Source of the DNA: Acidobacteriota bacterium
GTDB lineage: Bacteria; Acidobacteriota; UBA6911
Assembly: GCA_963664705.1 (NCBI GenBank)
Contig: OY761556.1
Location: 2,752,001 to 2,816,000 of the forward strand
Direction: 5' to 3'
DNA length: 64,000 nucleotides
Shown here: one piece after another, positions 18,278-22,265 of the stretch
Numbering within the stretch: the first letter of the stretch is position 1
Layout of the letters: every line of letters starts with the position of its first letter
The notes under the pieces: generated by a model
What the model was told of the DNA's origin: nothing
Seen by the model: only the letters and a program-made list of their open reading frames with translations
Databases searched by the model: none
Translations under genes and position numbers: made by a program

Positions 18278-18757
18278 ATGAGAAAACACATTCTCGTCCT
18301 TGCAGTAACGATGGCACTCGTCTCAGTGATTTCAACAACGGCTCTCGCGGCGGATCCAATTGTGGGGACATGGAAAACCAATGCCTCCAAATCAAAACTT
18401 GCGCCGGTTGGAAATTGGTTAAAGGAAGCCACGATGATGTTTCGAGAGGGAGGAAACCTGCTTTGGGTGGAAATTAAGGGTACGAATGTAAACGGCACGC
18501 CGTATGTAAGCAAAGGCAACCGTCCGTTGCCAGGCGGGATTGTCAAAAGCGAGCCACCGGCTGCCCAGGGAACCTCTCTCTATGTAACGGTAATAGGGCC
18601 GGGAGACGCCTATCTGACCACGTTCCAGAATGGGAACCAGACGGTTCTCGACCACTATGTCGTCAGTAAAGATGGGAAGACCTTAAGCTGGACATCCAAA
18701 GGTATGGACGAAAAAGGCAAACCCGCTGAGGCTCTATACATACTGGACAGGCAATAG
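18278..18757 (+). CDS. Secreted small beta-barrel (lipocalin-like) hypothetical protein
   Basis: Signal peptide; ADPIVGTWKTNASKS and VSKDGKTL; paralog of 21082. Confidence 0.75.
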   Translation: MRKHILVLAVTMALVSVISTTALAADPIVGTWKTNASKSKLAPVGNWLKEATMMFREGGNLLWVEIKGTNVNGTPYVSKGNRPLPGGIVKSEPPAAQGTSLYVTVIGPGDAYLTTFQNGNQTVLDHYVVSKDGKTLSWTSKGMDEKGKPAEALYILDRQ

Positions 18758-18825: not shown

Positions 18826-18913
18826 GCCCCTTCGGGGCTCTTTGTCGCGGTTATCTCTACCGGGGGTTCGCTACGCTTCACCCCCGGCTATTTTCTGACC
18901 GCCCCTCCGGGGC
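18826..18913. repeat. REP-like palindromic unit (gccccttcggggc / ccgggggttcgctacgcttcacccccgg / gcccctccggggc)
   Basis: Three short hairpins; the reverse complement resembles the unit split by the IS at 19085-19102 + 20645-20671. Confidence 0.7.
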
Positions 18914-18968
18914 TGATTTGATTGCGATTCCGGGTTCCTTGAGCAAATAGCATGCGGCATCAGCCGGG
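18901..18968 (+). repeat. 68-bp direct repeat, copy 1 (copy 2 at 20701-20768)
   Basis: 62/68 identity by manual alignment. Confidence 0.85.
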
Positions 18969-19201
18969 ACGGCTGCGTCCCCAGCGTGCAATTCTAAAAG
19001 AGTCGTGACCGTTGAGGTCTCCGAGTGCGGATTGTGCTGCTGCATAACAATTGTTCTGAGCTCTGCGACGCGAGAGAAGCACCAGGCCCGGAGGGCAAGT
19101 AGACATAATGGAGTGATCGGTCTCTAGCATGTAATATCGTGGGTTACAGCTGAAGTCGTGGTGACGAAGCTGCAGAGCCATAAAACATGAGGAGACCGAT
19201 C

Positions 19202-20296
19202 ATGGCAGATTGTATCACTTGGGTAGGGATGGATGATTCAGCAAAAAAGATAAACGTCGCAATTTTTCGCGGGCAGGAAAGTAACCCTCGAGAAGAACTT
19301 GTTGTATCAAACGACAGTACGGGGCTGGGTCGGTTAGCGAAAAAGCTAAGGGCATTTGAAGATGATGTACGGTGCGTCTACGAAGCGGGCGTTAATGGAT
19401 ACTATTTGCAGCGCTATTTGGCCAAACATGGGATTTCTTGTGAGGTTGCGGCCCCTTCGTTGACTCCGAGACGAGCGGGGAAAAAAGTAAAAACGGATAA
19501 GCTGGATGCGAAAGCCTTGGGCAAATTGTACCGAGCGGGAGAACTAACATGTATTGTGATCCCGCAAAAAGAACAGGAAAGTCTGCGAGATCTGGTGCGT
19601 GCGCGAGAAGACGCATTGGAAGACCAGCAGCGAGCACGGCATCGATTAGCACGGTTTCTGATGCGACGTGGATTGAAATATCCGCAGGGCAAGAACTGGT
19701 CGCTTGGGCACCTAAAGTGGATTAAGAGCCTTGTGTTTGAGGATGATGGGGATCAAACAGTACTGGAGGAATATCGACAGGCGCTTGAGCAACAGACGGA
19801 GCGGTTGAAAACATTCCAGGGAAAAATCGAGGAAGTTGCAAAACAGCCGAACTATCAAAAGCGAGTCAGCTATTTGATGGCGCTAAAAGGCGTTCAGGTT
19901 CTGACGGCGATGACGATTATCGCAGAAGCGCTCGATTTAAGACGGTTCGTTGATGCGCCTTCGTTTATGGCCGCTATTGGGGTGGTGCCTTCGGAAAGCA
20001 GCTCAGGTGAACTTGAAAGACGGGGAAGGATAACCAAAACGGGAAACAGCCACCTACGTAGGGTGCTGATCGAAAGCGCCTGGCACTACCGTCATTCTTC
20101 AGTAGCTGGCAAAACTCTCAAGAAACGACGAGAGTGTTTGCCGGCAGAAGTTATCGAGATTGCACAACGTTGCGATAAGCGATTGAATCAAAAATTCCGA
20201 CGCATGCTCAACCGAGGGAAAGAAAGACAAAAGATCGCGGTTGCGGTAAGTCGAGAATTGGCAGGATTTATCTGGGCTATCGGTCGTGTTGCATGA
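19202..20296 (+). CDS. IS110-family DEDD transposase/recombinase
   Basis: WVGMD, VYEAG, KTDKLDA (RuvC-like DEDD), LRDLVRARE, GVVPSESSSG (Ser loop), GRITKTGNSHLRRVLIESAW; RBS GAGGAG before ATG 19202. Confidence 0.95.
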   Translation: MADCITWVGMDDSAKKINVAIFRGQESNPREELVVSNDSTGLGRLAKKLRAFEDDVRCVYEAGVNGYYLQRYLAKHGISCEVAAPSLTPRRAGKKVKTDKLDAKALGKLYRAGELTCIVIPQKEQESLRDLVRAREDALEDQQRARHRLARFLMRRGLKYPQGKNWSLGHLKWIKSLVFEDDGDQTVLEEYRQALEQQTERLKTFQGKIEEVAKQPNYQKRVSYLMALKGVQVLTAMTIIAEALDLRRFVDAPSFMAAIGVVPSESSSGELERRGRITKTGNSHLRRVLIESAWHYRHSSVAGKTLKKRRECLPAEVIEIAQRCDKRLNQKFRRMLNRGKERQKIAVAVSRELAGFIWAIGRVA

Positions 20297-20355
20297 CATA
20301 AGGCACCAGCTCTTGCAGCTATTTTGTTCTTCAATGGATTAATAACGGAAACATT

Positions 20356-20563
20356 CGGTTAGTGAACGGAACAGGAGATCGAGTTCCAGGCTTCGAAAGG
20401 AGAAACCTCGACCTGGCTATGTTGGTATGGGAAACCAGAATCCACGGAAGTAGAGTGAGGCCGCTCCCGATGAATCAGTTGTCATGCGTGCTTATCGACC
20501 CGCGAATATCAGATTGATTATCGTCGCTGTTGCCAACTCGATCCCCTGTTCTTTTTACTGGCT
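20356..20563 (+). ncRNA. Predicted bridge/seek RNA of the IS110 element
   Basis: Outer stem 20369-85/20535-51 (16/17 bp). Target loop closed by cctc/gagg contains cctggcta (20412-19) and aagtag (20448-53). Donor loop closed by cgatgaatcag/ttgattatcg contains tgtc (20480-83) and atatcaga (20506-13). Confidence 0.8.
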
Positions 20564-20622
20564 GATTTATTTATGAACCGAAGAAAACCAAAATGAACGA
20601 ACAAGGAACGGATTGATTGTAC

Positions 20623-20628
20623 TTGACC
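20623..20628 (+). promoter_or_regulatory. -35 box (TTGACC) of the circle-junction promoter; -10 CATAAT at 19104-19109
   Basis: Joining the ends at the AG core gives TTGACC-gatcactccatatcaga(17 nt)-CATAAT. Confidence 0.8.
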
Positions 20629-20644
20629 GATCACTCCATATCAG

Positions 20645-20671
20645 CCAGGGGTGAGCGCAGCGAACCCCTGG
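20645..20671 (+). repeat. Right half of the REP-like unit interrupted by the IS
   Basis: ccaggggtgagcgcagcgaacccctgg hairpin, homologous to the reverse complement of 18860-18887. Confidence 0.75.
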
Positions 20672-20700
20672 CTTGGAATAGCCCTAAACCAATCCCGGAG

Positions 20701-20768
20701 GGCCCTCCGGGGCTGATATGATTGCGATTCCGGGTTCCTTGGGCAAATGGTATGCGGCATTAGCCGGG
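20701..20768 (+). repeat. 68-bp direct repeat, copy 2
   Basis: 62/68 identity to 18901-18968. Confidence 0.85.
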
Positions 20769-20784
20769 TGGCCGCGGTCCCGTT

Positions 20785-21081: not shown

Positions 21082-21588
21082 ATGCCACATCGGTGGTTCT
21101 CTGGAATCGGAGCGTTGCTGCTGCTTTTTGCTTCCGCCTTGGCGCAGGCCCAGGATCCGTTTGCCGGTACGTGGAAGCTGAACCTTGCAAAGTCTCGCTA
21201 CAATCCGCCCGGTTCAGCACCCCGAAGCGGAACAATCAAGACCGACGCAACAAAAACCGGTTATAGAAGCATAGGAGATGGAATCGATTCGGAAGGAAAG
21301 AGAACCCATTGGGAAAGCTCTCCAATCCTGGACGGCAAGGCTCATGCCGTTGCGGGAAATCCGGAGAATGGCATGTATGTGGCGGTAAAAGTTAATCTAC
21401 ACACGATCACCGGCACGGTTACGAAAAAAGGAATAGCGATCAGTTCGGAGCGCTCTGTAGTTTCGGATGATGGTCAGACCCTCACCGTTACTTCAAAGCA
21501 AAGGAACTCTCAGGGAATGGAAACAACCAACATCGCTGTTTTCGACAGGCACCGAAGCACGCCGACCGGCTCACCAGAGCTCCGGTAA
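21082..21588 (+). CDS. Secreted small beta-barrel (lipocalin-like) hypothetical protein
   Basis: Signal peptide; QDPFAGTWKLNLAKS, LDGK, VSDDGQTLT, VFDR; paralog of 18278. Confidence 0.75.
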   Translation: MPHRWFSGIGALLLLFASALAQAQDPFAGTWKLNLAKSRYNPPGSAPRSGTIKTDATKTGYRSIGDGIDSEGKRTHWESSPILDGKAHAVAGNPENGMYVAVKVNLHTITGTVTKKGIAISSERSVVSDDGQTLTVTSKQRNSQGMETTNIAVFDRHRSTPTGSPELR

Positions 21589-21653: not shown

Positions 21654-22265
21654 CTACTTCCTTTTCCTCCGGGAAACCAAGCCTACGACTCCAAGCCCGG
21701 TCGCCAGCAGGAGGATGGAAGTAGGCTCAGGAACCGCCCCGCTTCCGCCCGCATTAAAGCTGAAATTATCCCAACCCAATCCGCCCGGATCCACGATTCC
21801 ATAAATCCGGATCGAGGTAACATTTGAGTAGGCGGTCAGATCAACCAGATCAGGAACATTGAAATTGTCGTAGCTCATGATATCGACAGTTGCCGAGAGA
21901 CTACCATTTTCAAATACATCCACCTTTGCGCCGACGCCCGAAAAATTATCCCCGACTTGATAAAAGCTCAGCCCATTGACCGGGCTCGAAAAGGTCAGGA
22001 TAGTCTCCCCGGCGCAGTTTAGACCGGCTCCCACAGCGGCGGTGCAGAGAAAATTGTTGCCAAAACCAATACCGGCCTGAGTTGTAACAACATTCTGATT
22101 GCCGCCGACGCTCGAAAAAACAACACCAGCATATTGATTGGTAACCGCCGGGCCAGCGACGCCAACATTTCCAAACTCCTCAAAACCGATGGTTGCGGCG
22201 TTGGCTACGCCCAACATACCTGCAATCATCAAGCACATCCAAACGACTGATAGCTTCCTTGCCAT
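21654..22265 (-). CDS. PEP-CTERM sorting-signal surface protein
   Basis: Signal peptide; C-terminal VPEPTS + hydrophobic helix + RRKRK. Confidence 0.92.
   Translation of the reverse strand: MARKLSVVWMCLMIAGMLGVANAATIGFEEFGNVGVAGPAVTNQYAGVVFSSVGGNQNVVTTQAGIGFGNNFLCTAAVGAGLNCAGETILTFSSPVNGLSFYQVGDNFSGVGAKVDVFENGSLSATVDIMSYDNFNVPDLVDLTAYSNVTSIRIYGIVDPGGLGWDNFSFNAGGSGAVPEPTSILLLATGLGVVGLVSRRKRK

What the first reader, a model, noticed from the sequence alone, without database searches (positions are those of the whole stretch)
20356..20563. RNA-guided recombinase: IS110 non-coding end encodes a bridge/seek RNA whose loops match this element's own target and donor
Seen: removing the IS at the shared AG core gives the target ...gcaagtAGccagggg... 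and the circle junction ...ccatatcAGacataat.... In the 3' non-coding region, a 16/17-bp outer stem (20369-85/20535-51) encloses two internal loops. Loop 1 holds cctggcta (20412-19, exact reverse complement of target tAGccagg) and aagtag (20448-53, identical to target aagtAG). Loop 2 holds tgtc (20480-83, reverse complement of donor gaca) and atatcaga (20506-13, identical to the donor junction). Known: IS110/IS1111 DEDD recombinases use such bispecific RNAs, and IS1111-type elements encode them downstream of the transposase. Here the reverse-complement guide lies 5' of the sense guide, the opposite order to IS621. Inference: this is an intact, potentially reprogrammable recombinase/RNA pair. 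I cannot tell whether this particular element has been described.
Basis: partly seen in the sequence, partly recalled or inferred. Interest (0 to 1): 0.9.

Follow-up and report, generated by a model that had tools for sequence, protein, structure and literature searches.

The report
RNA-guided jumping gene targeting palindromic repeats
This is a jumping gene of a known RNA-guided kind, present eleven times in this genome, whose tail is predicted to make a two-loop guide RNA; the guide letters match its landing sites and change in step with the landing sites of its relatives, and their 'reversed' order likely means only that the RNA reads the DNA from the other strand.

Summary
Window 19103-20644 is an intact 1,542-bp IS1111-type element (369-aa DEDD recombinase, 15-bp subterminal inverted repeats, AG core), with 11 full copies in the genome. 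Across 71 non-redundant relatives, the two target guides follow each element's own site (26 independent pairs for, 2 against); donor guides follow the ends more weakly. The one copy outside a palindromic repeat shares little more than the 8 bases of the first guide. The 'opposite order to IS621' is the published IS1111 order (PMC11187229). Read on the other strand, the core is CT, the layout is IS621's, and handshake-like positions follow the partner DNA, so it likely works like IS621 on a flipped site. It belongs to the ISSso6/ISEc45 branch, about 25% identical to the tested IS1111 enzymes; I found no bench test of that branch. No RNA or circle was observed. This scan found the same kind of element, and the mirror-image reading, on other DNA before. 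New member of a known kind; interest 0.27.

The parts
19101..19102 (+). AG core dinucleotide, left copy (CT on the other strand)
   Evidence: AG in 71 of 71 relative clusters
19103..19107 (+). left terminal extension ACATA (7 bp with the core); supplies the -10 box CATAAT (19104-09) of the predicted circle-junction promoter
   Evidence: 7-bp left/3-bp right extensions define IS1111 ends in PMC11187229
19108..19122 (+). left subterminal inverted repeat, 15 bp, perfect
19187..20296 (+). DEDD recombinase, 369 aa; D16, E66, D104, D107 and S273 align with the IS621 catalytic positions
   Evidence: PF01548 + PF02371; NF033542 206.6 bits over cut-off 140; alignment to IS621/ISCro4 chains; residue numbers counted
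20366..20551 (+). predicted bridge/seek RNA (about 185 nt): outer stem 20369-85/20535-51, target arm about 20400-20467, donor arm about 20468-20524
   Evidence: model R1 match 20366-20551 (by construction); true ends unknown
20412..20419 (+). 5' target guide CCTGGCTA: pairs with the top strand at target -1..+6 (IS621 LTG equivalent in the flipped frame)
20448..20453 (+). 3' target guide (A)AGTAG: pairs with the bottom strand at target -3..+1 (RTG equivalent)
20454..20455 (+). handshake-like dinucleotide AG of the target loop; follows donor +2/+3, not target
   Evidence: 69 of 71 and 40 of 71 match donor; 8 of 71 each match target
20480..20483 (+). 5' donor guide TGTC: pairs with junction +1..+4; short and mismatch-prone
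   Evidence: 6 independent pairs for, 0 against, 5 ties
20506..20512 (+). 3' donor guide ATATCAG: identical to the last 5 bases of the right end plus core
20513..20514 (+). handshake-like position of the donor loop; A here, but follows target +2 in 9 of the 11 relatives where it is not A
20624..20629 (+). -35 box TTGACC of the predicted junction promoter (17-bp spacer to CATAAT in the circle)
20625..20639 (+). right subterminal inverted repeat, followed by the 3-bp extension ATC
20643..20644 (+). AG core dinucleotide, right copy
20645..20670 (+). hairpin of the interrupted REP-like repeat (GTAG foot at 19099-19102, stem CCAGGGG...CCCCTGG)
   Evidence: 120 hairpin cores of this family in the genome

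Best explanation
This is an IS1111-type insertion sequence whose 3' non-coding region is predicted to give a two-loop bridge RNA that likely binds the element's recombinase and, by base pairing, would bring the site (A)GT-AG-CCAGG and the element's own joined ends together for recombination at the shared AG. Shown here: element ends, intact catalytic residues, 11 copies at one motif, conserved fold, and guide letters that change with target and ends across relatives. Inferred from IS621/ISEc11 work: excision to a circle makes a promoter (TTGACC-17-CATAAT) that transcribes recombinase and RNA; the RNA is processed out; a recombinase tetramer cuts and exchanges strands. Inferred here: the recombination sites are flipped relative to the gene, so that on the bottom strand the core is CT, the 5' guide of each loop is IS621's left guide, the 3' guide its right guide, and the two bases after each 3' guide are handshake bases; the first strand cut would then be the bottom strand relative to the recombinase gene.
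For: Sites of 11 of 11 full copies read TAGCC[AG]GG; the copy at C1:2938673 lies outside the repeat family and shares little but TAGCCAGG. Repeats with the perfectly matched base are filled 9:1 over the wobble type, whereas empty ones run 36:54 (Fisher p 0.005). Unbiased map of 5,216 RNA-by-target cells over 63 clusters: the nine best cells all lie on the two predicted diagonals (z 6.2-12.8). Own-target matches at +2..+6: 61/71, 64/71, 57/71, 57/70, 42/68 against 0.25-0.29 for other elements' targets; at -1, -2, -3: 70/70, 65/67, 38/66 against 0.58, 0.30, 0.25. Tree-independent pairs: 26 for, 2 against, 5 ties of 33 informative (p 3e-6); six shifted registers gave no signal. Fold: 97.2% of cells paired, 9 of 25 pairs with double changes, slid controls 33-54%. 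Donor guide placed by scaffold alone: 60 of 66 match 7 of 7, and 4 of 7 variant ends are followed exactly. Handshake pattern: summed pairing rises after exchange in 40 of 71, falls in 2, is equal in 29, the direction reported for IS621 (PMC13626964). Junction promoter of at least 9/12 in 28 of 71 circles against 1 of 60 linear left junctions.
Against: No RNA and no circle were observed. In the single-sequence fold the guides are partly paired, and the alignment consensus did not recover the outer stem. The 5' donor guide is only 4 nt and mismatched in several relatives (L004, L107, L109, L117, the L065 group). Some elements misfit their single known site (L082, L158, L162). In this element the handshake balance is neutral (1 pair before, 1 after), the second donor-loop position follows neither DNA (9 of 71 each), and independent pairs for the handshake positions are too few to test (2-0, 2-1). 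Donor ends vary little, so the 3' donor guide test is weak (4-0, p 0.125).
Confidence: 0.9

Rival explanations
1. SeekRNA model: only the target arm is the working RNA; the element's ends are held by protein through the 15-bp inverted repeats, and the donor-like arm is a dispensable precursor part.
For: For ISEc11 an 82-nt target-only RNA supported movement better than the 154-nt form (PMC11187229). Here the 5' donor guide is short and often mismatched, and 3 of 7 variant ends are not followed exactly by the 3' donor guide.
Against: The donor arm is the most conserved part of the RNA; 4 of 7 variant ends are followed letter for letter; 20480-81 covary with the left end (z 5.6 and 8.8; 6-0 in pairs). 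Selection on these matches is hard to explain if the arm is idle. The two models can both hold for different steps.
Confidence: 0.2
2. The guides are read in a geometry truly different from IS621 (reversed loop polarity, different strand order), as the authors of the seekRNA paper allow.
For: [quoted passage not shown] The enzyme is distant from IS621 (E 2.8e-6 only). 20419 follows the target's own -1 base (57 of 70).
Against: On the other strand the core is CT in 71 of 71 clusters, the long guide is 5' and the short guide 3' as in IS621, the long terminal extension falls on the IS621 'left donor' side, and cross-pairing (target loop with donor, donor loop with target) appears just 3' of the 3' guides, where IS621 has it.
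Confidence: 0.2
3. The element finds the repeat hairpin by shape through protein, and the RNA matches are chance or relics.
For: 11 of 12 insertions (with the deleted copy) are in repeat hairpins, more than the share among empty matching sites (55 of 213 TAGCCAGG; 115 of 180 GTAGCC[AG]GG).
Against: Relatives use 43 different +2..+5 target words and their guides follow them; one copy here sits at a guide-matching site with no hairpin. Survival in intergenic DNA can explain the excess.
Confidence: 0.03

Closest known systems
ISSso6 / ISEc45 / ISCARN28 branch (labelled IS1111 in the source data of PMC11187229; ISCARN28 bridge RNA predicted in Durrant et al. 2024, PMC11208160 Fig. 6d)
   Same: Recombinase 38% identical to ISSso6 and 36% to ISEc45, one clade with them at support 99. 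Model R1 finds the RNA behind ISSso6 (69.5 bits) and ISEc45 (37.5 bits). ISSso6 has AG core, 5-base left and 3-base right extensions. ISCARN28 is 44% identical to ISSso6 in the paper's matrix.
   Different: Different target (GTAG-footed palindromic repeat) and under 40% protein identity to any named element found. ISCARN28 itself was not compared directly, and I could not see the figure with its predicted RNA.
IS1111-family seekRNA elements ISEc11, ISKpn4, ISPst6, ISPa11 (Siddiquee et al. 2024, PMC11187229)
   Same: Subterminal repeats with 7/3-bp extensions, non-coding region after the gene, top-strand complement before bottom-strand match, junction promoter; ISPa11 also targets REP sequences. 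ISEc11 and IS4321 show the same order of segments, including donor matches.
   Different: Recombinase only about 25% identical over part of its length to ISKpn2, IS4321, IS5708 (31% over 138 aa to ISEc11) and on a separate long branch; 369 aa against 330-350; R1 does not match their RNAs.
IS621 / ISCro4 bridge recombinases (PMC11208160, PMC11208158, PMC13626964)
   Same: DEDD + serine active site, two internal loops with paired guides, REP targeting, and, on the opposite strand, CT core, long-then-short guides and handshake-like positions.
   Different: RNA downstream rather than upstream; long subterminal repeats; sites flipped relative to the gene; shorter covarying target (about 5 + 2 + 3 bases against 7 + 2 + 2); both arms closed by a long outer stem.

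Membership tests
IS110 superfamily RNA-guided recombinases | DEDD RuvC-like domain plus Tnp domain with catalytic serine | tested here: met
IS110 superfamily RNA-guided recombinases | Site- and orientation-specific insertion at a shared core, no further duplication | tested here: met
   11 of 11 copies at TAGCC[AG]GG, same orientation, one AG each side
Bridge RNA (Durrant 2024) | Structured RNA with two internal loops | tested here: met
   consensus fold and pair counts; computational only
Bridge RNA (Durrant 2024) | Target-loop guides covary with both target strands | tested here: met
Bridge RNA (Durrant 2024) | Donor-loop guides covary with both donor strands | tested here: met
   met weakly: 6-0 (p 0.03) and 4-0 (p 0.125) in independent pairs; 60 of 66 by scaffold placement
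Bridge RNA (Durrant 2024) | Handshake bases pair with the partner DNA after strand exchange | tested here: inconclusive
   clear across clusters (40 up, 2 down, 29 equal), neutral in this element, too few independent pairs
Bridge RNA / seekRNA | RNA is expressed, binds the recombinase and is required; reprogrammable | not testable with these tools
   needs bench work; no RNA holder listed
IS1111 family in the ISfinder/Durrant sense | Subterminal inverted repeats with 7-bp left and 3-bp right extensions; long non-coding region at the right end | tested here: met
   86 nt before and 351 nt after the gene
IS1111 family in the ISfinder/Durrant sense | Top-strand complement lies 5' of the bottom-strand match | tested here: met
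   against PMC11187229
IS1111 family in the strict sense of Siddiquee 2024 | Transposase related over its full length to the tight IS1111 cluster (330-350 aa) | tested here: not met
   25% over 237-314 aa to three named members, separate branch; ISSso6/ISEc45/ISCARN28 are about 15-25% identical to that cluster in the paper's matrix. IS1111 itself was not in my tree; only 4 canonical members and 1 outgroup.
IS110/IS1111 elements | Circular intermediate with junction promoter | tested here: inconclusive
   promoter predicted; no circle joint in the contigs laid, which drop rare forms

The most novel reading that the evidence does not exclude
The reversed guide order of IS1111-type RNAs is not a second mechanism: this whole branch is an IS621-type bridge system whose recombination sites are inverted relative to gene and RNA (AG core = CT core), with handshake bases kept in place. 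It would cut the bottom strand first and could be programmed with IS621 rules on the opposite strand, opening an untested recombinase branch (ISSso6/ISEc45-like, about 25% identical to the tested enzymes) with a simple two-loop RNA downstream of the gene. I did not find this stated in the passages I read (five searches), but figures were not visible and it may be implicit in Durrant's Extended Data Fig. 10c.
Probability: 0.65. Interest if true: 0.42.

Novelty: new member of a known kind. Interest (0 to 1): 0.27.

Why it matters
It adds a clean, recently active example (11 copies, 98.9-100% identical) of an RNA-guided recombinase from a branch for which I found no experiment, with all four guides and the handshake positions mapped from natural variation, so it is ready for a plasmid test. 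The strand-flip reading gives a sharp prediction that would settle whether IS1111-type and IS621-type systems share one mechanism, a point the seekRNA paper left open. As a tool it is unremarkable: the covarying target is only about 10 bp.

Tried and rejected
Rfam: three weak matches (E 0.08-0.34), none in the RNA, all below gathering scores. Sequencing runs: no RNA holder listed; raw DNA run X22 laid 0 reads, so no test; contigs of X1, X3, X5 showed no end-to-end circle joint, but contigs drop rare forms; the 'skip' joints there carry other letters between and are other repeat copies, not excision. Linear promoter scan found no plus-strand promoter or terminator for the RNA. The first end-finder by longest inverted repeat was misled by repeats and replaced by a motif rule (121 of 181 loci called; 5 dropped as doubtful, 116 collapsed to 71 clusters; 8 clusters with short flanks left out; L078 and L090 missing from the tree). 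The donor-guide counts were anchored on the element's own junction and are partly circular; redone by scaffold (5 not placed, 3 misplaced). The promoter tally was one base out of register and is superseded. One search stopped after 2 of 6 named elements. Idea rejected: that 20419 is a handshake base of opposite polarity to IS621; in the flipped frame it is an extension of the left guide. Idea rejected: that 20484-85 follow the target (no sign). Search of earlier findings by sequence: nothing. No structure or complex prediction was run.

Full report
Observation. The element runs from 19103 to 20644 (1,542 bp, one AG core included), with a second AG at 19101-02, a perfect 15-bp subterminal inverted repeat (19108-22 / 20625-39) and a 369-aa recombinase gene at 19187-20296 that matches PF01548, PF02371 and NF033542. 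D16, E66, D104, D107 and S273 align with the IS621 active site (numbering counted by me). The region 20356-20563 folds better than all 200 shuffles (z -4.09). In 3,000 base shuffles the three longer matches arose together once; singly they arose 76, 1,042 and 155 times, and TGTC 2,043 times. So sequence matches alone are suggestive, and the case rests on comparison.

Inside the genome. There are 11 full copies, 98.9-100% identical, and one 91-bp left-end remnant. One full copy has an internal stop. The guide segments are unchanged in all 11. All 11 sites read T-AG-CC[AG]GG. Ten are at the GTAG foot of a palindromic repeat family with 120 hairpin cores in the genome. The eleventh (C1:2938673) has no hairpin and shares with the others little beyond TAGCCAGG, the exact complement of the first guide. 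Among repeats, the perfectly matched CCAGG type is filled 9 times and the wobble CCGGG type once, while empty ones run 36 to 54 (Fisher p 0.005; copies may not be fully independent). Repeats are filled more often than their share of matching empty sites (55 of 213 for the 8-mer, 115 of 180 for the 9-mer); survival between genes or a liking for hairpins could explain this, and I did not resolve it.

Relatives. Three searches gave 181 loci. A motif rule called both ends in 121; I dropped 5 doubtful calls and collapsed 116 into 71 clusters. All 71 have an AG core; they use 43 different target words at +2..+5. RNAs were aligned without using target information. Per position, the first guide matches its own target at +2..+6 in 61/71, 64/71, 57/71, 57/70 and 42/68 cases against 0.25-0.29 for other elements' targets; the second matches -1, -2, -3 in 70/70, 65/67 and 38/66, and -4 not above chance. 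To allow for kinship I took 34 disjoint pairs on the protein tree: where partners' targets differ, own beat swapped in 26 pairs, lost in 2, tied in 5 (p 3e-6), and six shifted registers gave nothing. The donor side is weaker because ends vary little: 6-0 with 5 ties for the 5' guide, 4-0 with 2 ties for the 3' guide. With the 3' donor guide placed by scaffold alone, 60 of 66 match 7 of 7, and 4 of 7 variant ends are followed exactly, 1 partly, 2 not. Misfits exist (L082, L158, L162 for targets; L004, L107, L109, L117 and the L065 group for the 5' donor guide).

Structure. For 34 of the 71 clusters (the closer-looking RNAs) the consensus has two arms, each with an internal loop holding a guide pair; 9 of 25 pairs show double changes, 97.2% of cells pair, and slid controls pair 33-54%. 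The consensus did not recover the outer stem, which aligns poorly, though it is firm in this sequence. Alone, this RNA partly hides its guides at a cost of 6.7 kcal/mol.

Guide order. Siddiquee et al. (PMC11187229; I read parts 1-5 of 9 of the text, and supplement passages) report that the top-strand complement comes first in all IS1111-type seekRNAs tested and last in the IS110-type one. ISEc11 and IS4321 fetched here show the same succession, with donor matches behind the target matches (2 of 6 examined before the script stopped). Reading the DNA on the other strand removes the difference. The core becomes CT, as in IS621 (PMC13626964, passages). The 5' guide of each loop is then the sense copy of the left side and the 3' guide the complement of the right side, with the long-then-short target guides described for IS621 (PMC11208160, section 6 and passages). 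IS621 has handshake bases just 3' of its right guides, which pair with the partner DNA after exchange (PMC11208158, passages). Here 20454 equals donor +2 in 69 of 71 and target +2 in 8; 20455 equals donor +3 in 40 (26 expected) and target in 8; 20513 is usually A but equals target +2 in 9 of the 11 clusters where it is not. Summed, pairing rises after exchange in 40 clusters, falls in 2 and is equal in 29. Against: this element is one of the neutral ones, 20514 follows neither DNA, and independent pairs are too few.

Mechanism. Shown: ends, sites, fold, covariation. Inferred from published elements: joining the ends creates TTGACC-17-CATAAT (a match of at least 9/12 spans 28 of 71 circle junctions against 1 of 60 linear left junctions), which would transcribe gene and RNA; the RNA would be cut out, bind the recombinase and align target and donor for exchange at the core. 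Whether excision is cut-out or copy-out is open even for IS621 (bioRxiv 10.64898/2026.08.31.748434, abstract only). No RNA or circle was seen here.

Placement. The closest named elements are ISSso6 (38%) and ISEc45 (36%). They form one clade with this element (support 99), apart from ISEc11, IS4321, ISKpn2 and IS5708 (fast tree, long branches, one outgroup). The RNA model finds ISSso6 and ISEc45 but none of those four nor ISRel9. The source data of PMC11187229 label ISSso6, ISEc45 and ISCARN28 as IS1111 and give them about 44% identity to one another and about 15-25% to the tight IS1111 cluster. Durrant et al. predicted the bridge RNA of ISCARN28 (legend only; figure not visible). So the element has IS1111-type anatomy and is an IS1111-group member in the database sense, but fails the strict full-length similarity criterion. 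A search for six names of this branch returned 21 papers, 19 listed, none by title or abstract start an experiment on its RNA (listing only). The human-cell screen chose RNAs with an IS621-seeded model (bioRxiv 10.1101/2025.05.14.653916, passages). Also seen: PMC13604230 (passages and section 4), which speaks of 'opposite guide-RNA transcriptional orientations'; PMC12288879, 10.1101/2025.10.25.684509 and 10.64898/2026.04.29.721476 (passages). Durrant's Supplementary Table 5 was not visible in the cut file. That GTAG-footed hairpins are a class of REP spread by RAYT transposases is recalled, not from a call. I cannot say whether this exact element has an ISfinder name; no named match above 38% turned up in the plasmid collection, which is not ISfinder.

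Verdict. It is a well-supported new member of a system described in 2024, in a branch for which I found no bench test; this scan has reported the same kind on at least eight other stretches. Interest 0.27; the strand-flip reading, if new and true, 0.42.

Noticed in passing
L192 (G000:C1:1439920-1440261, minus strand): The genome's only Y1_Tnp match (PF01797; NCBIfam IS200/IS605 55.8 bits against cut-off 55) is flanked by an inverted pair of the same GTAG-footed repeats that the element targets: a RAYT-like arrangement that may be the source of the repeat family.
   Followed up: partly
G000:C1:4126129-4126219: A twelfth insertion reduced to the left 91 bp, joined directly to the repeat hairpin; the right end and three target bases are missing.
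   Followed up: partly
G000:C1:4951644-4953185 (L018): One full copy carries a single internal TAG stop in the recombinase; its RNA region is unchanged.
   Followed up: no
window 18855-18981 and 20686-20781: Further repeat units flank the element: an oppositely oriented hairpin of the target family at about 18860-18885 and a 79-nt direct repeat (86% identical) on both sides, a mosaic repeat cluster between two short genes without Pfam match (18278-18757, 21082-21588) that look alike.
   Followed up: no
window 20419-20445 and 20484-20505: The two RNA arms share a scaffold (ATG-CGG ... AACCCGCG ... AGA in the consensus), as if one arm arose by duplication of the other.
   Followed up: no
L028-L041, L044, L074, L076, L084: Many copies of one relative sit at nearly the same flanking sequence in several genomes titled Dehalococcoidia, which suggests that it targets another repeated element.
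   Followed up: no
L004, L102-L108, L110-L115: The closest relatives also sit at the foot of similar hairpins, with guides adjusted to CCCCG, CCCAG, CCTGG or CCAGG variants: retargeting among versions of one repeat type.
   Followed up: partly
window 21654-22265 (minus strand): A PEP-CTERM protein gene lies 1 kb downstream; unrelated to the element.
   Followed up: no
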